64,000 nt of DNA from an uncultured Gemmatimonadota bacterium (GTDB taxonomy: Bacteria; JAAXHH01): contig OX638340.1 in assembly GCA_951812955.1 (NCBI GenBank), forward strand, positions 1,024,001 to 1,088,000. The letters are read 5' to 3'. The position numbers were made by a program, and so were the translations under genes. This document shows, one piece after another, positions 47,137 to 57,900 of this stretch. The notes beneath the pieces were generated by a model. It was not told where the DNA came from, ran no database searches, and saw nothing but the letters and a program-made list of their open reading frames with translations. The first letter of the stretch is position 1. Each line of letters starts with the position of its first letter.

Positions 47137-47174
47137 ATCAGTAGGCCTGGGCGTAATCAGTAGGCCTGGGCGTA
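47137..47174. repeat. perfect 19-bp tandem duplication (ATCAGTAGGCCTGGGCGTA x2) covering the proS stop codon
   Basis: Copies at 47137-47155 and 47156-47174 are identical. The second copy contains the proS stop and its last five codons (YAQAY*). The first copy is a noncoding duplicate. Confidence 0.95.
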
Positions 47175-48584
47175 GGCGACCATGCGCTCCGAAGGACCAC
47201 CGCAATACGCGCAGGCACCCGTAACGGCATCCCAGTGCATGGGGACGCACCGGATCGTGTTCCGGGTCTCCTCTTTAATCGCGGCTTCGCAAGCCGGATC
47301 GCCGCACCAGTGGGCATGGATGAATCCGCCGTCGCCGTTCGCGGCTGTCACAAATGAATCGCGTTCCTGGATCTCCTGGGAACGTGATTCGCGGAAAGTC
47401 AGGGCGCGCTGGAACATGTCCCGCTGCACCGTCTGCAGCAAGTCTCCGACCCGGCCTCCCAGAGACTCGAGGGGTACAAACTCCTTCTCGCCCGTGTCCC
47501 TGCGTACGACTACGGCCTGGCCGGACGCGATATCACGCGGACCGAGTTCCACGCGCAGCGGAACGCCCTTCGTTTCCCACTCGGTGAACTTCCAGCCCAG
47601 GCCGAACTGCTCGCGGTCGTCGACCTTCACCCGCACGCCTTCCAGCGTTTCGAGCAGCCGGTCGACGGCTTCCCGGACGACGGCCTGCTCCTCGTCGGAT
47701 TTCGCGATGGGAATGACCACGACCTGGTGAGGCGCCAGGCGGGGCGGCAGCACCAGCCCCCTGTCGTCGCCATGGGCCATGATGATCGCGCCGACGGTCC
47801 GGGTGCTCATCCCCCAACTCGTCTGGTACACGTACTCTCGCGAACCGTCCCGCGTCTGAAAATCGATATTGAAGGCGCGGGAGAAGTTCTGCCCCAGGTT
47901 GTGCGACGTGCCCATCTGAAGGGCCTTGCCATCCTTCATCATGCCTTCGATGGCGTAGGTCTGCAGCGCGCCTGGGAATTTCTCGGCGTCTGTTTTCGGA
48001 CCGTATAGCACCGGAATCGCCATGTAGTCTTCGGCGAAGGTGCGGTATATGTCCAGGATGCGCAGGGTTTCCTCTTCTGCCTCTTCCGCCGTGGCGTGTG
48101 CCGTGTGTCCTTCCTGCCAGAGGAATTCCGTCGTGCGCAGGAAGGCCCTGGGACGGAGTTCCCACCGGAAGACGTTGGCCCACTGGTTGATGAGCAGGGG
48201 CAGGTCGCGATAGGACTGGATCCACCTGGCGTACATGTCCGCTATGATGGTCTCTGAAGTCGGGCGGACCATGAGGTTTTCTTCGAGCTTCTTGCCCCCG
48301 CCGTGCGTAACCACGGCGCATTCGGGAGAAAACCCCTCCACGTGTTCGGCTTCTTTCTGGAAGAAACTGTCGGGGATCAACAGAGGGAAATAGGCGTTCA
48401 CGTGACCGGTGTCCTTGAACATCCGGTCCAGTTCCGCCACCATGTTTTCCCAAAGTGCGAATCCGTATGGCCGGATGACCATGCAGCCGCGGGTCGGCGC
48501 GTTGTCGGCCAGTTCGGCTTTCGCGATCACTTCATTGTACCAGGCTGAGAAATCGTCCGCCTGCGCGGTCAACTTTTTTGCCAT
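47157..48584 (-). CDS. proS: proline--tRNA ligase (archaeal/eukaryote-like type with C-terminal Zn-binding domain)
   Basis: 475 aa. It has the N-terminal ...FSAWYNEVIAKAELADNAPTRGCMVIRPYG..., class II motifs, a C-terminal Cys cluster and a terminal Tyr. Confidence 0.9.
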   Translation of the reverse strand: MAKKLTAQADDFSAWYNEVIAKAELADNAPTRGCMVIRPYGFALWENMVAELDRMFKDTGHVNAYFPLLIPDSFFQKEAEHVEGFSPECAVVTHGGGKKLEENLMVRPTSETIIADMYARWIQSYRDLPLLINQWANVFRWELRPRAFLRTTEFLWQEGHTAHATAEEAEEETLRILDIYRTFAEDYMAIPVLYGPKTDAEKFPGALQTYAIEGMMKDGKALQMGTSHNLGQNFSRAFNIDFQTRDGSREYVYQTSWGMSTRTVGAIIMAHGDDRGLVLPPRLAPHQVVVIPIAKSDEEQAVVREAVDRLLETLEGVRVKVDDREQFGLGWKFTEWETKGVPLRVELGPRDIASGQAVVVRRDTGEKEFVPLESLGGRVGDLLQTVQRDMFQRALTFRESRSQEIQERDSFVTAANGDGGFIHAHWCGDPACEAAIKEETRNTIRCVPMHWDAVTGACAYCGGPSERMVAYAQAY

Positions 48585-50450: not shown

Positions 50451-51038
50451 ATGATACAGGCTTTCCGCGCGCTGGTCTTCGCGACAACCGTCAGTGTATT
50501 TGCATTGCCGGCGTCCGGCCAGTTCAATTTCAACCTGGGCGGCGAAATAGCCCGCCCCACGTCGGGTCTTGCCAAACTGGTCGAAGAAGACTATGGTTAC
50601 GGCGCCCATGCCGCCCTGACTTACTGGTTGAGTTATCGAGTCCAGTTCGTCTGCTCGGGCGGCTACATCACATACGGTAGCGAAGCGTTCGCCTCCCGCA
50701 CCGAAGTGGAGGACCTGGTAGACCGGAATCTGGACGAAATAGTCGACCGGATCGAAGGCAATTACTCCAGCATACCGGTGACCACCGGGCTGCGATTCTA
50801 CCCTCTGGAACGACTCTTCGTGCAGGGCTCTGCCGGCGTGGTGTACAAGAGAACGCGGCAGAAAGGCGACGCAGCCACGAATTCGGAAGAGGGCTTCGTC
50901 ACTGAAAGAGAACTCATCGTGTCGCCGGGGGTCGGGCTGCTGATCGGCCGTTTCAGCCTGCAGGCGCAGTACAACGTGTCCAAGGACGACTGGAAGTGGT
51001 TGAGCCTGGGGGTGTCGATGATCTTCGGGAAGCTGTAA
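50451..51038 (+). CDS. small outer-membrane beta-barrel protein
   Basis: Has the signal peptide MIQAFRALVFATTVSVFALPASG and a beta-strand-style sequence. The start is taken at the ATG at 50451; the upstream part of the computed ORF overlaps gltA. Confidence 0.5.
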   Translation: MIQAFRALVFATTVSVFALPASGQFNFNLGGEIARPTSGLAKLVEEDYGYGAHAALTYWLSYRVQFVCSGGYITYGSEAFASRTEVEDLVDRNLDEIVDRIEGNYSSIPVTTGLRFYPLERLFVQGSAGVVYKRTRQKGDAATNSEEGFVTERELIVSPGVGLLIGRFSLQAQYNVSKDDWKWLSLGVSMIFGKL

Positions 51039-51146
51039 GGCTTCTGCTGTAAAATGCTTTCAGAATGTCGTCCTTGGAAGAAAACTCTAAACTACGCATT
51101 TGCAGACATCCGATTTTAACAGGCCCCTCCATTTACGGTAATTGCT

Positions 51147-54103
51147 ATGCCAGTCAATAGCGAGCCATCCTTCAACGAAGCACTGGCACGTGTCCTCCGG
51201 TCGAAGAATCCTCGCTGGCGGGACACGCTTGCCGCAGAACAACACCAAACGCTAAAGGGTGGCGGTAGACCTGACGTAATACTGCGGAATCCGCGCGGTT
51301 CGGTGGTTGTCGTCGAGACCGAGTACGTTCCAGCCCGTACGGTTGAGACGGAAGCCAATGATCGCATCGGTCGAGAACTCAGTGATTCAGGCGTGGCTAT
51401 TGAGCAGTGTGTCGCCGTCCGAGTACCTGATTACTTAAAAACGGTCCCTCAGCACGATCTCGACACCCGTACGGCGGTGGCGACCTACGAATTCTGCCTC
51501 TTCAGCGAAACGGACAATGCCGAGGATCCTTTGCGCTGGCCTGCGGATGGTTGGATCACAGGCGCGATCAACGATCTCGCGCTCCTGATCGAAACCGCGT
51601 CGATTTCAGAACGGATCGTCGCCCAAAGCCTGGACATTCTGGAAGATGGGATAAGCGAAACTGCCGTCCAGTTGCGCGAAGCCACTAAGGACAGACCAAA
51701 CGTAAGTTCCCGCATTGCGAAAACGCTCCTGCAAGAAGACGGCGTGCAGACTTCCCGAATGGCTATGGCCATCATCGCAAATGCGCTCACTTTTCAGAGC
51801 ATGCTCGCCGGGGTCTTTCACGTAAAGACGATCGACGATCTACGCCGGAACGGAGTCATCCCAAAGTCGGCGGTCCTGCGAGAATGGAAGCGCATCCTTC
51901 GAATAAACTACTGGCCCATATTCCACATTGCGAGCGAGGTCCTCAGTCCGATTCCGGATGGCATCTCCGCTCGTTTGCTGGAAAAGTTGTCGAATGTGTC
52001 GAGCGAGTTAGAAGCACACGGCATCACCCAGTCACACGACATCTATGGGCGAATGTTCCAGCGGATGATCAGCGACAGGAAGTTCCTCGCGACGTTTTAC
52101 ACCTTGCCCACGTCGGCGACGTTGCTCGCGGAGTTGGCAGTTGAGATGATAGACGTTGAGTGGAGCGATCCTGATGAGGTGACGAAGCTTCGCACCGCAG
52201 ACTTTGCATGCGGTACGGGTACGTTGATCACGGCGCTCTATCAGGCAATGCTGGGTCGCCATCGACGTGCTGGCGGCAACGATGAGGCGATTCACAAGAG
52301 CATGATGGAGACTTCTATCTTCGCGGCCGATATCATGCCGGCGGCTACCCATCTGACCACTTCGATGTTGTCCAGTACCCATCCAACAACCCCTTTCGAG
52401 CAGACCCGTGTCCATCTCTTGCCCTACGGCCAGCAGGAGGACGACGTAGGGGCCATTACCTTCGCGCTGGGCGCGCTTGACCTGATACGAGCGCAGCACG
52501 GTACCGGACTATTCGAGAACACGGGGATCATGGTACAAAGCGGTACAGAAAGCACGCAGGACGTCATTAGAGAAGCAGGTAGATTGACGGACACATTCCT
52601 GCTTCAGCACCACTCGATGGACGTGGTTATCATGAATCCGCCCTTTACTCGCCCGACCAACCACGAAGCGACCGATGTCCCTGTACCTTCTTTTGCCGGC
52701 ATGGGAAATAATGAGGCAGAGCAGGCAGCCATGTCCCAACTTCTGAGAGATATCCGGAGGGAAATTGACGATCCCGCCGGTCACGGAAACGCCGGACTCG
52801 CGTCCAATTTCCTTGACCTCGCTGACGCCAAGATCCGTCCCGGCGGCTTGCTTGCGCTCGTGATGCCACTCAGCCTTCTTCAAGGCAACGCGTGGAAGGC
52901 AAGCCGCGACCTACTGCAGGCAAAGTATGAGAGCGCAGTGGTCGTCAGCCTAGCATCCGTAGTTCGAGACAGTGCGGTATCATTCTCGGCCGATACCGGA
53001 ATGGGAGAGGTGTTGTTGATCGCACGACGCAGAACCGTACCAGACAGTCCAGAGCACACGAAAACTGAAGAGACAGTCGATACGGTTACCTATTCGCGCT
53101 GCGAAAGCCGCCGGCATCGGGAACCGAGGCAACAGGGATCGCATCGGCGATTCGTGACGCGATCCAGCAGGGCACCTCGCGAATCGCCATTGGAAACGCC
53201 CGTTACGGTATTCTCACACGAGGTACCTGGGACGAGGGCCACTGCGCGTCAGTGATAAATGCTGAACTCGTAGATACCGTGAGAAACCTGCAAGATAGCA
53301 AACTGAAATTGCCTCGAATGGCTCAAGCGTATTCGGTTCCAACAACGATGCTGGGCGAGTTGGGAAAACGGGGCTTGGTTCACCGAGATATCAATGGGAT
53401 TGAAAGAAAATCCGTTCAAGATCAACAGGAATCAAAACGGTATTTTCGCGGTCCGTTCGATATCGTACATACGACAGACGAACCGACCTTTCCGGTTCTC
53501 TGGGGACATGCCACTGACCGCGAACGTTGCATCGTGGTTCAGCCTGACAGTGCAGGAATAATTCGCGAAGACTGTGAAGACGGCGCGCACGATGCCTGGA
53601 GAACGGCGACCAGGCTCCACTTCAGTCTCGACTTTCGCCTCAACTCACAATGCCTCGCCGCGTGCCTTACTCCAACCGAAACACTGGGAGGAAGAGCATG
53701 GCCCAATTTCCAGATGGACAGCCGTAGGAATGAGACTGTTACCGCGCTGTGGGCTAACACAACGCTGGGACTGATACTGTTCTGGTGGGCAGGTACCGTT
53801 CAGCAAGCAGGACGAGCCAACCTTACCATCAGCAGGTTGCCCGAACTGCTCACGCTGGATGCGCGTACGCTGACAGACGCGCAGCACAAGCAGGTAGATC
53901 TGATCTTCAAAGAGTTTGAGAAACGCCCACTGTTGCCAGGAAACGAGGCGTATCGGGACGCGAGCCGACAGGCGCTGGATGAGGCCGTGCTCATTGGCCT
54001 CATTGGACTGCCTGAATCAATTCTCGATCCTCTCGCGGTGCTTCGCCGGCAGTGGTGCAGTGAGCCGACCGTGCATGGTGGGAAAAGTACGCGACCCAAT
54101 TGA
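51147..54103 (+). pseudogene. MmeI-like (Type IIG/IIL) fused restriction-modification enzyme, interrupted by a 1-nt frameshift
   Basis: The N-terminus has a PD-(D/E)xK-like motif (GGRPDVIL...VVVETEY). The gamma-class N6-adenine MTase motifs are FYTLPTSATLLAEL, DFACGTGTL (motif I) and MNPPF (motif IV). The frame changes near 53069-53100. The frame of the downstream ORF is open from 53069 and reads protein-like (...YLFALRKPPASGTEATGIASAIRDAIQQG...), whereas the upstream frame turns into an Arg-rich tail. Confidence 0.7.
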
Positions 54104-54173
54104 ATAGTTTTACGATAGTACTCAAACCCCAAAATGCAGTTGGCTTCCATATAGCACCGCATTCTAATTGATC

Positions 54174-56870
54174 ATGAATTGCGATGGTAATATGAGTTCA
54201 TCTAAAATCAGACCTGCTGAAAAACCGCTCGCAATGTTTGTAAGTAGTGTGATGGATGATGACCTTCAACCATATCGAGATACAGCAGAATCCCTGATCA
54301 ATTCCAGGTTCCTCACGTCTTGGGTTTTCGAATACACCCCCGCGAGTTCTGAATCATTAGACGAGTCCTATTTACGACACGTAAGAAATGCGGATTTCGT
54401 AATATGGATAGGTGGTGAAAAAACATCGAATCCTGTGAAGCGGGAGGTAAATGAAGCAATCATTCATCAAAAACGCCTGTTGGTTTTTCTACTACCTGCT
54501 AACACTAGAAATGCTGGTACTGAGGAGATAATTGAGACTATCAGTTCAAACAAAGGTCCAAAGTGGTGTAAACTGGACGATCGAAATATCGAAACATTTG
54601 AGGAAGCACTTGACTATACGATACAGGACGAATTTGCTCGGGCGATTAGAAATGATCATAGTTGGCAACGAATCGGCACATTGGAACGACTAAACCGCGA
54701 CTCTCGAGCAAGGTCTTTGTCCAGATTCATGGCATCCGGCCTTTCACGAAATCAAGCAAATCGTATGTTTAAGAAGGTTTCCGATCTTCCTGTCTTAGCA
54801 TCGCCTGAGTTACCGAAAGAAGGCGAGGTGAGTTTACTTGTTGGGACGCTGGGATCCGGAAAGTCATTCACGGCTGAAAAAGTGTATCAGGAGGTCCTTG
54901 ATCAATCTAGATCTCCGTTGGCTCCTGTACCTTTCTACATAACTGCACGTCATGTTAGAAATGGTTTGGATTCTTACATCAAACAACTCAATCCTGAGTT
55001 AGGTGACGTCACTTCAATTGGCGCCTCCATAGTAATTGATCAAATTGACGATCTTCCCAATTCCGATTCACGCCGACTGTATGAAGAAGCGCTTGCTCTC
55101 ACGTTATCGTGGCCCAAGACGAGGGTTCTACTCGTTAGTCGTCCTCAGCCGTGGAGCCGAGACTGTGTTGCTACTACACATGTAAGGGAGATGTCGTTAG
55201 AGGAAGTTGAAACTGTGGTAGAACTCGTGTCGGATTCAATTCGTTCCCAGCTTCTTTGGATAATGCCTCATGCTTTACGTCGATCCGTTCAACGCCCTCT
55301 TTTCGCGATCCTGCTTGCCAAGTATCTCGAATCTAATGAAGATCAAGTTCCAATTTCTATGGCTAAGTTACTCGACCGGATGGTACGCGAAGCTGTCGAG
55401 AACGCTGGCACTGAAAGCAATCAGTCGATAGAAAAGATGCTGAGGTCTTTGGCTGTAAAACTGACAGACGGCCATGCCGATGTGAAACTGACGGATCTTA
55501 CTATACCAATATCCGATAGAAACAGACTCTTAAATACACATTTGGTATATGAGGAATCTGAACGTCTGGATTTTGCCTTGCCTATCTTGCGGCAATGGTT
55601 CGCATTTGATGCCATATGTCAAAAAGAAGTAGATATCGTAGAATTATCACTTGATGCGGGACGACTCGATAAGTGGGAAGATGTATTAACCACTGCAGTT
55701 GAACTCGCCACTAATCAGATTGATGACATAGTAGAACCCATTGTCGTCAATAACCCATCTGTAGCGTCAGTCATTCTCGACAGTGCATTCGGCCATCTGT
55801 GGTATAGTAGTCCTGATTCTGATCTATCTGCCGACACGTTCGGGAAACATATTCGAAGGGCAATGACGGCATTTGCCAAAGGCATAGGCCCTCTAAGTGG
55901 GCTAATTGCTCCTGTGAATGAACAAGGAGAAGTAAAACCGCTCGGTGTAGCCAAATTGAACGAAGGCTATTACAAGACGAGTTGGTATGAGGGATCATCT
56001 GACATAGAAAACGTAGTCGGGGTTTCTTCGGAAGATGATTTGGCGATTTCTGATTGGCCCCACATTTTCTCGCGAACAAGGATAGACTCACCTGCGTGGG
56101 CTTGGCTGGATGTCAAGCACCAGTTGAGGGAGCGTTTGGAAAAACTACTAAATTGTTACGGTTTTCCTATTCGAAATACCTTCTTCTTGCATGAATCAGC
56201 TTGGGAATTAGCATCCTCGGCATTGAACCGACATTCGCAGTTAGAACCCCAAGTCTCTAGTGATGAAATGAATGACGTGCTCCGATGGATCCAGAAAAGA
56301 CCTTCGACCATGCTTCGACAATTTAGTCCAGAGACCGTAGTGTTAGCAGCAACGTACCTACAAGGACTCATTGACAAAAACAGGCCACTCCGAGCACCGT
56401 GGCCTGGGCCTGATCAGGCTTTGTCTAGTAGTAAGTGGGTGTGGGAACTGTATTCTCCTGAGAGGCTTCGCAAAAGGCTTCAACGCGTCTTAAGTGCATC
56501 TTTAGAAATGTATCAGGAAATCGTATCCAAATGGTTTATCACTATGTCCAACAGATTCGAGTTATTTTCACTAAATCCAGTACGTCTTGTTGGTTACTTA
56601 TACGTGCCTGAAGGAAAAACTTCCGACTTGAGAAGTGAACCATCCGTAACGTTCTATTTTGAACCGATTCGGGGACATGTGTCGTCAAGTGTGGATATCT
56701 TTCTCGGTTCAATTCCGTTAGCAGAATTAGAGTCAACTGTACTTAAAGTCAATCCAAATGCTATCACAATATGTACGTCTATGGTTGTCAGTATTTTCGG
56801 CAGACGTCCAGCAACTGATCAGGCTTACGATTGGCTGAAAGACGGTTTACGTTCCGCCAAGTGGGACTAA
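54174..56870 (+). CDS. DUF4062-like N-terminal domain / NACHT-type STAND P-loop NTPase / uncharacterised C-terminal domain (Avs/bNACHT-like)
   Basis: The N-terminus ...LAMFVSSVMDDDLQPYRDTAESLI... follows the DUF4062 pattern. The NTPase motifs are Walker A LLVGTLGSGKSF, Walker B SIVIDQIDDL and a NACHT-like RVLLVSRPQP. About 560 aa of C-terminus have no motif I recognise. The start is ambiguous (TTG 54168, ATG 54174 or ATG 54192). Confidence 0.7.
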   Translation: MNCDGNMSSSKIRPAEKPLAMFVSSVMDDDLQPYRDTAESLINSRFLTSWVFEYTPASSESLDESYLRHVRNADFVIWIGGEKTSNPVKREVNEAIIHQKRLLVFLLPANTRNAGTEEIIETISSNKGPKWCKLDDRNIETFEEALDYTIQDEFARAIRNDHSWQRIGTLERLNRDSRARSLSRFMASGLSRNQANRMFKKVSDLPVLASPELPKEGEVSLLVGTLGSGKSFTAEKVYQEVLDQSRSPLAPVPFYITARHVRNGLDSYIKQLNPELGDVTSIGASIVIDQIDDLPNSDSRRLYEEALALTLSWPKTRVLLVSRPQPWSRDCVATTHVREMSLEEVETVVELVSDSIRSQLLWIMPHALRRSVQRPLFAILLAKYLESNEDQVPISMAKLLDRMVREAVENAGTESNQSIEKMLRSLAVKLTDGHADVKLTDLTIPISDRNRLLNTHLVYEESERLDFALPILRQWFAFDAICQKEVDIVELSLDAGRLDKWEDVLTTAVELATNQIDDIVEPIVVNNPSVASVILDSAFGHLWYSSPDSDLSADTFGKHIRRAMTAFAKGIGPLSGLIAPVNEQGEVKPLGVAKLNEGYYKTSWYEGSSDIENVVGVSSEDDLAISDWPHIFSRTRIDSPAWAWLDVKHQLRERLEKLLNCYGFPIRNTFFLHESAWELASSALNRHSQLEPQVSSDEMNDVLRWIQKRPSTMLRQFSPETVVLAATYLQGLIDKNRPLRAPWPGPDQALSSSKWVWELYSPERLRKRLQRVLSASLEMYQEIVSKWFITMSNRFELFSLNPVRLVGYLYVPEGKTSDLRSEPSVTFYFEPIRGHVSSSVDIFLGSIPLAELESTVLKVNPNAITICTSMVVSIFGRRPATDQAYDWLKDGLRSAKWD

Positions 56871-56898
56871 TTCATTCAGTTTCAGATACCTTTGATTC

Positions 56899-57900
56899 AT
56901 GGCTTACGAATCCCGTATGACCGAATTCAGGAAAGCGAGAGACCGCGGTGCCAAATACCTGCTTCGCCAGGTACACGCGGACGGCAGTTTCGGCAATCCC
57001 GTTCTCGGCGTAACCGAATACTACAAGGCGCCGGCCGCGTTTCTCGTGTGTGGACTGTCCCATGCCGCGAATCGACAGCTAAACTGGATCAGGCACAACG
57101 GCTTCCTGCCGAACGGTGATTTCGGTCCAAGACCCGCCAGCGAACGCAACAGTTACTATTACACCTACCACAATGCCTGGGTGATCAAGGCGGCCCACCG
57201 CATGGGCGCTTTCGACCTCGCCCGGCGCGGCATGGACTTCCTCCTCGGATTCCGCGACCCGGCCAGCGGCGGTTTCTACTCCCACCCGATGGCGCGCGAC
57301 GATACGACCGAGCAGGACCTGTGGGTCGTGAGCGGCATAGGCTGGTGCGCCGTTTACACCGGAAAGCTGGACGTGGCCAGGGGCATCGGCCGCTGGATGC
57401 GTCGCCTGATGGAGGATCAGCCCGATTACCCCAGTGCGTTGTGGACGGTCTACAGCCGCGACCGCGGACTGATCACCGAGGTGCTGGACGGCGACGATTT
57501 CAGGTACGTGCTGACTCGGGACGAGTCGCGCGACCAATCCTTCTACCACCCAGGCATCGCGGCTGGCTTCCTGTGCCGCCTCTACATGGCCACGGGCGAG
57601 GAGGAATGGCTGGATCTCGCGAGGGAGTACATGCGGTTCTGCGAAAACGTGGGGGACTATCACTTCAAGTTGCTGCGCGCGGGCAAGGTCGGTTGGGCTG
57701 GCGCGATGCTCTACACGCTCACGGGGGAAGTAAAGTACCGCGACATGGCGGTCAGGGTAGGAAACAACCTGGTCCAGGCCCAGTTGGCAAACGGCGCATG
57801 GGCCTGGCCGGAGATGGGGCTGACCGGACCGCACAACGACATCACGGCCGAAATGGTCGTATGGCTCGACGAGATCCACCAGGCGGTTGGCGACGGCTAG
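56899..57900 (+). CDS. prenyltransferase/squalene-oxidase-repeat (alpha/alpha toroid) protein
   Basis: 333 aa with QW-like or prenyltransferase-like repeats: GAKYLLRQVHADGSFG, ASGGFYSHP...DDTTEQDLWVVSGI and VGNNLVQAQLANGAWAW. Confidence 0.5.
   Translation: MAYESRMTEFRKARDRGAKYLLRQVHADGSFGNPVLGVTEYYKAPAAFLVCGLSHAANRQLNWIRHNGFLPNGDFGPRPASERNSYYYTYHNAWVIKAAHRMGAFDLARRGMDFLLGFRDPASGGFYSHPMARDDTTEQDLWVVSGIGWCAVYTGKLDVARGIGRWMRRLMEDQPDYPSALWTVYSRDRGLITEVLDGDDFRYVLTRDESRDQSFYHPGIAAGFLCRLYMATGEEEWLDLAREYMRFCENVGDYHFKLLRAGKVGWAGAMLYTLTGEVKYRDMAVRVGNNLVQAQLANGAWAWPEMGLTGPHNDITAEMVVWLDEIHQAVGDG

What the first reader, a model, noticed from the sequence alone, without database searches (positions are those of the whole stretch)
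51147..54103. Frameshift splits an MmeI-like nuclease-methyltransferase-TRD fusion
ORF 51147-53255 carries a PD-(D/E)xK-like N-terminus (RPDV...VVVETEY; the canonical Lys is not evident) and gamma-class N6-adenine MTase motifs (DFACGTGTL, NPPF). After ...GEVLLIARRRTVPDSPEHTK... its tail degenerates into an Arg/Ser/Pro-rich sequence. The -1 frame is open from 53069 and reads as a natural continuation (...YLFALRKPPASGTEATGIASAIRDAIQQGTSRIAIGNARYGILTRGTWDEGHCAS-VINAELV...) into ORF 53252-54103. A single-nucleotide deletion, or an assembly error, at about 53069-53100 therefore separates one ~985-aa gene into two ORFs. I saw no slippery heptamer, so programmed frameshifting is unlikely. If the frameshift is real, the RM-like gene is inactivated while the adjacent STAND gene is intact.
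Basis: seen in the sequence. Interest (0 to 1): 0.55.

Follow-up and report, generated by a model that had tools for sequence, protein, structure and literature searches.

The report
Frameshifted single-chain restriction-modification gene
Two neighbouring reading frames are really one roughly 985-residue gene for a combined DNA-cutting and DNA-methylating defence enzyme, broken in this record by the loss of a single G; this is an ordinary event, although the enzyme family is large and has not been studied.

Summary
ORF 51147-53255 and ORF 53252-54103 are the two halves of one gene. More than 100 homologues of 960-1010 aa cover both halves as a single protein, and the closest is 93% identical. 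In a DNA alignment with the closest homologue (91.6% identical), the only internal indel is one missing G between window 53093 and 53094 (TAT-GTC-GCG becomes TAT-TC-GCG). The site is not in a homopolymer and has no slippery heptamer.

The break falls just after the variable linker that separates the methyltransferase from the C-terminal recognition module. The downstream half shows no decay: dN/dS is about 0.10, and 78 of 79 family-conserved residues are kept. The lesion is therefore either very recent or a consensus error, and it is present in the deposited record.

The gene has no conserved partner, and the adjacent STAND gene is unrelated cargo. This is a new member of a known kind, of modest interest.

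The parts
51147..51605 (+). N-terminal PD-(D/E)XK nuclease domain (aa 1-153). Invariant acidic residues are E31, D43 (51273-51275), E57 and E59 (51315-51323, 'ETE').
51609..52076 (+). All-helical spacer between the nuclease and the methyltransferase (approximately aa 155-310).
   Evidence: Secondary structure of the full-length model, helices 155-309. It matches the spacer or connector domain of MmeI and BpuSI (PMC4833311, PMC3185434).
52104..53066 (+). Gamma-class N6-adenine methyltransferase domain (approximately aa 320-640). Motif I is ADFACGTGTL at 52197-52226 and motif IV is NPPF at 52635-52646. The domain ends in a linker of variable length (aa ~630-646).
53093..53094 (+). Frameshift site. 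One G is missing between these two bases: homologues read TAT GTC GCG (Y V A) and the window reads TAT TC GCG.
   Evidence: DNA alignment with L001 (91.6% identical) and L004 (80.7%) shows this as the only internal indel.
53094..53255 (+). Out-of-frame tail of ORF A: 53 Arg/Ser/Pro-rich residues followed by a TGA stop. It has no homologues.
53096..53725 (+). Recognition-like alpha/beta module (family aa 651-860), now in the other frame. This is the most variable part of the protein among close relatives. The listed ORF B begins only at the GTG at 53252, so it lacks the first 52 residues of this module.
   Evidence: One search shows 50-88% identity in aa 721-800 among relatives that are 80-97% identical elsewhere. 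One search shows this module swapped among tandem paralogues. One search shows 540-600 residues aligned to MmeI, DrdV and PglX.
53726..54103 (+). C-terminal helical bundle (family aa ~861-985) with conserved motifs WANTTLGL, LPxNEAYRD and WCxEPTVHGGK, followed by the stop codon.
   Evidence: It is positionally equivalent to the C-terminal helical bundle of MmeI (PMC4833311).

Best explanation
Window 51147-54103 is one gene for a solitary, single-chain restriction-modification enzyme of the Type IIG/IIL kind. Its domains, in order, are a PD-(D/E)XK nuclease, a helical spacer, a gamma-class N6-adenine methyltransferase, a target-recognition module and a C-terminal helical bundle.

By analogy with MmeI, DrdV and BpuSI (inferred, not shown), one recognition module directs both activities. 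It directs methylation of the host's own sites and cleavage of unmodified incoming DNA at a distance from the site.

In this record the gene has lost one G between 53093 and 53094. That is three residues after the variable linker that joins the methyltransferase to the recognition module. The first product therefore carries nuclease and methyltransferase but no recognition module. The recognition module has no start codon of its own until 52 residues in. If the base is truly absent, both restriction and modification should be lost.

The lesion is either a very recent genuine null mutation, which I judge somewhat more likely (about 60%), or a consensus error in the assembly (about 35%). It is not programmed recoding.
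For: - **One gene:** full-length single-protein homologues exist, and both frames align to them on either side of ...VTY|VALRK....
- **Single indel:** the DNA alignment shows one missing base.
- **Catalytic residues:** D43, E57, E59 and the motif I and NPPF residues are invariant in 48 sequences.
- **Solitary gene:** no neighbouring gene family recurs in more than 5 of 80 loci.
- **Recognition module:** the C-terminal part is the most variable among close relatives and is shuffled among tandem paralogues.
- **Recent or artefactual:** dN/dS is 0.11 upstream and 0.10 downstream, and 78 of 79 conserved residues downstream are kept.
- **In favour of a real mutation:** the lesion is in the deposited record (P0269 is ORF A). 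No other frame-breaking indel occurs in 17 genes shared with L001. The site is not a homopolymer. The orthologue in a sister genome has an independent one-base insertion at about aa 270. About 8% of 80 genome copies are broken.
Against: - No reads are available, so an assembly or polishing error cannot be excluded. The complete lack of decay downstream fits an error equally well.
- Restriction and methylation activities are inferred from fold and motifs only. No member of this family is known to me to have been characterised.
- The nuclease motif is ExE rather than ExK. In EcoRV and EcoRI, swapping Lys for Glu at this position severely reduces cleavage (PMC3025578), so activity of this variant is not assured.
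- The C-terminal module was not searched as a separate structure. Its assignment as a recognition domain rests on whole-chain alignments and on its pattern of variation.
Confidence: 0.8

Rival explanations
1. The missing G is an assembly or consensus error. The organism has an intact, functional 985-aa gene.
For: The downstream half shows no decay at all. The window comes from a 3.8-Mb metagenome contig, which implies a long-read assembly. A strain mixture could also yield a minority allele in the consensus.
Against: The site is not a homopolymer. About 16 kb of neighbouring coding sequence shared with L001 has no other frame-breaking indel in the window. Independent frameshifts exist in the orthologue of a sister genome and in about 8% of family copies.
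Confidence: 0.35
2. Programmed -1 ribosomal frameshifting or transcriptional slippage restores the full-length protein.
For: A -1 shift after the TAT codon would give ...VTYFALRK..., which is the same length as the homologues' ...VTYVALRK....
Against: The site ACC TAT TCG has no X XXY YYZ heptamer and no homopolymer run. Intact homologues have no shift here. Other broken copies are broken at different positions: about aa 270, 106-129, 962 and 967.
Confidence: 0.02
3. The frameshift converts a single-chain enzyme into a working two-subunit enzyme: a nuclease-methyltransferase subunit plus a separate specificity subunit, as in Type IIB enzymes (BcgI, BsaXI) or Type I enzymes.
For: The break lies at the methyltransferase/recognition-module boundary. 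ORF B's GTG overlaps ORF A's TGA as GTGA, which could allow translational coupling. Natural systems with separate RM and S subunits exist (PMC11997821, PMC3874165).
Against: No ATG, GTG or TTG occurs in the new frame before 53252. ORF B would therefore lack 52 residues, namely three strands and a helix of the module. ORF A also carries a 53-residue nonsense tail. None of the 80 genome loci shows a two-gene arrangement split at this point.
Confidence: 0.05
4. The family is not a restriction enzyme but a solitary DNA methyltransferase, for example an anti-restriction or epigenetic one. On this view the N-terminal nuclease-fold domain is non-catalytic in the ExE subfamily.
For: The canonical Lys is replaced by Glu in 179 of 226 long members. 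Distant homologues sit on plasmids among genes typical of plasmid transfer and establishment regions, including an ArdC-like zincin protein and a PRTRC cluster. The C-terminal half is fairly well conserved for a recognition domain. Near-identical tandem copies occur, which is not expected for an enzyme that can be toxic to its host.
Against: E31, D43, E57 and E59 are invariant across phyla. They form the same E...D...ExE set that is catalytic in BamHI and OkrAI (PMC3025578). The plasmid-borne distant members keep the canonical D...ExK. The best structural match of the domain is an active Type IIG nuclease.
Confidence: 0.15

Closest known systems
MmeI / DrdV (Type IIL single-chain RM enzymes)
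   Different: The MmeI Pfam domain models are not matched: MmeI_Mtase hits 1 of 48 members at E 0.046, and MmeI_N, MmeI_TRD and MmeI_C hit none. Sequence identity is about 11-13%. The motifs are NPPF rather than NPPY, and D..ExE rather than D..ExK. Activity, one-strand modification and cleavage distance are untested.
RM.BpuSI / Eco57I-type Type IIG enzymes
   Different: BpuSI has PD-x15-ExK and NPPY (PMC3185434). BpuSI also has an extra domain interrupting its recognition domain and, from my own recollection, works with separate companion methyltransferases. Here no partner gene is conserved. All Pfam scores for the window protein are below the gathering thresholds.
BREX PglX/BrxX methyltransferase
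   Different: PglX works within a multi-gene BREX operon and has no nuclease domain. This gene is solitary and has an N-terminal PD-(D/E)XK domain.
BamHI / OkrAI active site
   Same: The family has a Glu in place of the catalytic Lys, plus an upstream Glu: E31, D43, E57, E59 here against E77, D94, E111, E113 in BamHI (PMC3025578).
   Different: The resemblance concerns only the catalytic motif. BamHI is a small homodimeric Type IIP enzyme with no methyltransferase fusion. The equivalence of E31 to BamHI E77 is my inference, and no superposition was done.

Membership tests
Type IIG/IIL single-chain RM enzymes (general architecture) | N-terminal PD-(D/E)XK endonuclease fold | tested here: met
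Type IIG/IIL single-chain RM enzymes (general architecture) | Canonical catalytic triad D...(D/E)xK | tested here: not met
   The window has D43...E57-T-E59. ExE occurs in 179 of 226 long members and ExK in 14, including distant plasmid copies. The variant is BamHI-like (PMC3025578), so catalysis remains plausible but is unproven.
Type IIG/IIL single-chain RM enzymes (general architecture) | Gamma-class N6-adenine methyltransferase domain with motif I (FxGxG-like) before motif IV (NPPY/F) | tested here: met
Type IIG/IIL single-chain RM enzymes (general architecture) | C-terminal target-recognition domain shared by both activities | tested here: inconclusive
   Whole-chain alignments to MmeI, DrdV and PglX span 540-600 residues. 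The region is the most variable among close relatives and is swapped among tandem paralogues. No separate fold search of this module was possible.
Type IIG/IIL single-chain RM enzymes (general architecture) | SAM-dependent cleavage at a fixed distance from an asymmetric site, with methylation of that site | not testable with these tools
   This needs biochemistry or methylome data.
Type IIL (MmeI-like) in the strict sense | Solitary gene with no separate methyltransferase | tested here: met
   No neighbouring ORF family recurs in more than 5 of 80 genome loci.
MmeI family (Pfam MmeI_N, MmeI_hel, MmeI_Mtase, MmeI_TRD, MmeI_C) | Match to the family's profile HMMs | tested here: not met
   The window protein gives no MmeI_* hit at E<=0.1. 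Only 1 of 48 relatives hits MmeI_Mtase, at E 0.046.
BREX PglX | Encoded within a BREX operon (brxA/B/C, pglZ, brxL) | tested here: not met
   There are no conserved neighbours. The PADLOC PglX hit is only E 0.063.
MADS MAD2 methyltransferase | NCBIfam NF047738 at or above its cut-off | tested here: not met
   The score is 15.8 bits against a cut-off of 720.
Programmed -1 frameshift site | Slippery X XXY YYZ heptamer at the shift, and conservation of the shift in homologues | tested here: not met
   The sequence is ACC TAT TCG. Homologues are in one frame here, and other broken copies break elsewhere.

The most novel reading that the evidence does not exclude
The gene belongs to an uncharacterised and very large clade of solitary single-chain RM-like enzymes: about 1800 clusters at 50% identity with E<=1e-30, and no curated model. 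On this reading the clade uses a BamHI-type E...D...ExE nuclease site instead of ExK. It has spread by lateral transfer across many phyla of what appear to be marine-sponge symbionts. It diversifies by shuffling its C-terminal recognition module among tandem paralogues. Frequent frameshifts such as this one would then reflect ongoing gain and loss of specificities in these communities.
Probability: 0.35. Interest if true: 0.55.

Novelty: new member of a known kind. Interest (0 to 1): 0.3.

Why it matters
For this window the result is mainly an annotation correction. The two 'hypothetical' ORFs are one defence gene carrying a single-base lesion, and the neighbouring STAND gene is independent cargo in a variable slot.

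The family itself may be of wider use. It has thousands of members, no Pfam or NCBIfam model, and an unusual ExE nuclease motif. It also shows tandem copies with swapped recognition modules. Single-chain RM enzymes whose recognition module sets both cutting and methylation are the class in which new specificities have been engineered (PMC4833311). An uncharacterised clade with natural module shuffling could therefore add new specificities.

If the lesion is real, the pair of near-identical genomes gives a natural experiment. This window carries the broken gene and OY762445.1 carries the intact one, so comparing their methylomes could assign the methylation motif.

Tried and rejected
- Curated-library searches on both ORFs (Pfam, NCBIfam, PADLOC) gave only sub-threshold methyltransferase hits for ORF A and nothing for the C-terminal part.
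- PDB sequence searches, with a single sequence and with a 48-sequence profile, gave only marginal BrxX hits in motif I.
- I tried to find the window's own contig by exact protein look-up, using ORF A from the GTG, ORF B and citrate synthase. None is on record. The record name, coverage and sequencing technology therefore stay unknown.
- I scanned JGI metagenome contigs for either allele of the frameshift site and found no match.
- I tested whether the STAND gene is a partner. It has no homologue in any of the 90 other fetched loci, and the slot downstream of the RM gene holds different genes in each relative. The idea is rejected.
- I tested for pseudogene decay downstream of the frameshift and found none. 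The excess of window-specific changes downstream is better explained by recombination. dS is 0.63 downstream against 0.16 upstream, while dN/dS is the same in both halves.
- I considered BREX and MADS membership and rejected both.
- The promoter and terminator scan of 50900-57000 found fewer sites than in shuffled sequence and is uninformative.

Full report
**1. The observation**

The window holds ORF A (51147-53255, +, 702 aa) and ORF B (53252-54103, +, 283 aa) in different frames. ORF B's frame is open from 53069. I joined the two frames into a 985-aa protein and searched the 5.8-billion-protein collection. More than 4000 proteins matched. The best 120 include dozens of single proteins of 965-1010 aa at 50-93% identity that cover 100% of the query.

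In a protein alignment, the frame-0 product follows the homologues up to ...EETVDTVTY and then departs into an Arg/Ser/Pro-rich tail. The other frame follows them from ALRKPPASGTEATG... onward. I fetched the genes of the two closest relatives: P0001 in L001 at 91.6% nucleotide identity, and P0003 in L004 at 80.7%. The three-way DNA alignment has exactly one internal indel, a G missing from the window between 53093 and 53094. The homologues read TAT GTC/GTA GCG (Tyr-Val-Ala) and the window reads TAT TC GCG.

**2. Real mutation or error, and is it programmed?**

The site is not in a homopolymer and has no slippery heptamer. Homologues are in one frame at this point. Other broken copies of the family are broken at other positions: about aa 270, 106-129, 962 and 967, plus a truncation and an insertion. 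Recoding is therefore very unlikely.

The downstream half is not decaying. dN/dS against L001 is 0.11 upstream and 0.10 downstream. The window keeps 78 of 79 positions that are at least 95% conserved in 48 relatives, which is within the range seen for intact members. The lesion is therefore very recent or artefactual.

Several points favour a real lesion:
- The deposited record carries it. P0269, from a 3,813,436-bp contig in NCBI/ENA, is exactly ORF A called from an internal GTG.
- Across 17 genes (about 16 kb) shared with L001, the window has no other frame-breaking indel.
- The orthologue at the same syntenic position in a sister genome (OZ241838.1, L006/L015) carries an independent one-base insertion at about aa 270.
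- About 8% of 80 genome copies are disrupted.

I could not retrieve the window's own record or its reads. The question stays open, and I put it at roughly 60:35 in favour of a real mutation.

**3. What the gene encodes**

AlphaFold2 on P0001 with 48 relatives gave a confident model (pLDDT 83, pTM 0.86) with five parts:
- an alpha/beta domain, aa 1-153;
- an all-helical region, about aa 155-310;
- a Rossmann-type domain, about aa 320-640;
- an alpha/beta module, about aa 645-860;
- a helical bundle, about aa 861-977.

The published MmeI layout is nuclease 1-155, spacer 156-300, methyltransferase 301-620, recognition domain 621-825 and helical bundle 826-919 (PMC4833311). It matches this model almost boundary for boundary.

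**4. The nuclease motif**

The window has D43...E57-T-E59. These three residues and E31 are invariant in 48 relatives from many phyla. The ExK group includes distant plasmid-borne homologues that read ...RPDVL...AIEGKF.

The domain is therefore a genuine PD-(D/E)XK derivative in which Lys became Glu. The same replacement, together with an upstream Glu, is the catalytic set of BamHI and OkrAI (E77/D94/E111/E113). According to PMC3025578 it is otherwise known only in BtsCI, and Lys/Glu swaps at this position severely reduce cleavage in BamHI, EcoRV and EcoRI. My reading is that the family's nuclease is active with a BamHI-like metal site. That is an inference and remains untested.

**5. Where the break falls and what it does**

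Residues about 630-646 form a low-confidence linker of variable length. P0021 has 11 extra residues there and P0035 about 100. The frameshift is at residue 649/650, in the first strand after that linker, so it sits at the junction of the methyltransferase and the recognition module.

ORF A therefore encodes nuclease, spacer and methyltransferase plus a 53-residue nonsense tail. The new frame has no ATG, GTG or TTG before 53252, so ORF B would lack 52 residues of the module, namely three strands and a helix. In enzymes of this kind the single recognition domain directs both activities (PMC4833311). Losing it should abolish restriction and modification together, which makes this a non-toxic way to lose the system.

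A functional two-subunit split cannot be excluded. Favouring it are the GTGA stop/start overlap and the natural existence of RM+S enzymes such as BsaXI (PMC11997821). The truncation makes it unlikely.

**6. Context**

The locus is syntenic in related Gemmatimonadota-like contigs. The order is ProRS, ApaG, citrate synthase, a 195-aa gene, the RM gene, then a variable slot, then a 327-aa gene, a cupin gene and a GH32 gene. The slot holds different genes in each relative:
- a 154-aa gene;
- HEPN_AbiU2 plus an amidase;
- a DUF6338 gene;
- here, a 900-aa DUF4062/NACHT-like STAND gene.

G+C is 0.60-0.64 in the flanks, 0.55-0.57 in the RM gene and 0.45 in the STAND gene. The STAND protein has no homologue in any of the 90 other loci fetched.

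Across 80 genome loci, no neighbouring ORF family recurs in more than 5, so the RM gene acts alone. More distant members lie in plasmid-like or mobile contexts: ParA/RepA/relaxase genes, toxin-antitoxin modules, pUSP4 next to an ArdC-like gene, and pSTJ1 next to a PRTRC cluster.

**7. Comparison and membership**

The gene resembles MmeI and DrdV in layout and in being solitary. It resembles BpuSI and Eco57I in its nuclease fold and methyltransferase profile. It is not a member of the MmeI Pfam family, of BREX or of MADS.

No curated model reaches its threshold on the window protein, and public annotations read 'hypothetical protein' or 'N-6 DNA methylase'. The family is large: 4961 clusters at 50% identity with E<=1e-3, and 1829 with E<=1e-30, mostly 950-1010 aa long.

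**8. Verdict**

The finding is correct and its interpretation holds. As an event, a single-base frameshift in a defence gene of a metagenome-assembled genome is ordinary, and it may even be an assembly artefact.

The more interesting material is incidental:
- the family is uncharacterised and very widespread;
- it uses a rare ExE nuclease motif;
- judging by record names, it is abundant across many phyla of what appear to be sponge symbionts;
- it forms tandem arrays with shuffled C-terminal modules.

This fits the reported enrichment and lateral transfer of RM genes in sponge microbiomes (PMC8163846).

Noticed in passing
window 54168-56870 (+): An intact 900-aa gene with an N-terminal DUF4062 domain (25.7 bits, just above Pfam's threshold) and a weak NACHT-like P-loop. 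Its G+C is 0.45 against 0.60-0.64 in the flanks. It occupies a slot that holds different genes in each related genome, and it has no homologue in the 90 other loci fetched. It looks like recently acquired, independent defence-type cargo.
   Followed up: partly
loci L011-L090 (genome contigs): The 80 best genome matches (44-100% identity over the full length) come from MAGs of many phyla. These include Gemmatimonadota/Longimicrobiales, Vicinamibacterales, Dehalococcoidia, Latescibacterota, Alpha- and Gammaproteobacteria, Synechococcus, Spirochaetales and Bacteroidota. Many record names point to marine sponges: Poriferihabitaceae, Porifericomitaceae, and APA/CAR/RHO/SB bins. This suggests lateral spread inside sponge microbiomes (compare PMC8163846). 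I did not verify the sample origin record by record.
   Followed up: partly
L061 2959-12063; L080 2821-12078; L090 2-11873; L048 6001-11871; also L058 and L066: Full-length paralogues lie in tandem arrays on one strand. L090 (three full copies plus a partial) and L048 (two copies) are about 100% identical. In L061 and L080, two copies share the N-terminal 450 aa at 96-99% identity but differ in the C-terminal module (57-86%), or the reverse. This indicates recombinational shuffling of the recognition-like module.
   Followed up: partly
L015 (= L006, OZ241838.1) about 6810; L016; L029; L085; L068; L028: About 8% of the 80 genome copies are disrupted, each at a different place. The orthologue at the same syntenic locus in a sister genome has an independent one-base insertion at about aa 270. 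That genome also has a fragmented MR_MLE gene.
   Followed up: partly
window 51147-53093 compared with 53096-54100: Synonymous divergence from the closest relative (L001) jumps from dS 0.16 in the 5' two-thirds to 0.63 in the 3' third, while dN/dS stays at about 0.10. Flanking genes are 95-97% identical. The gene is therefore a recombinant mosaic whose C-terminal module has a different history.
   Followed up: partly
L001 6118-7422 (-), compared with window 47157-48584: The prolyl-tRNA synthetase gene of the related contig L001 has a 5-nt indel relative to the window and is called at 434 aa instead of 475 aa. Here the related contig is the broken one, not the window.
   Followed up: no
L009 6905-9748 (pUSP4, Aminobacter); L010 6896-9811 (pSTJ1, Sulfuricystis): Distant homologues (24-25% identity, full length) lie on mobilizable plasmids. 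They keep the canonical PD..ExK nuclease motif. They sit among plasmid transfer and establishment genes: an ArdC-like zincin protein, DUF5710, DUF3560 and a topoisomerase on one, and a PRTRC cluster plus a separate N6 methylase on the other.
   Followed up: partly
window 53252-53255: ORF B's GTG start overlaps ORF A's TGA stop as GTGA, and a GAGGG lies 13 nt upstream of the GTG. The same bases encode the conserved ...WDEGHCASV... in intact homologues, so this is probably coincidence. It is the only feature that could support translation of the downstream fragment.
   Followed up: partly
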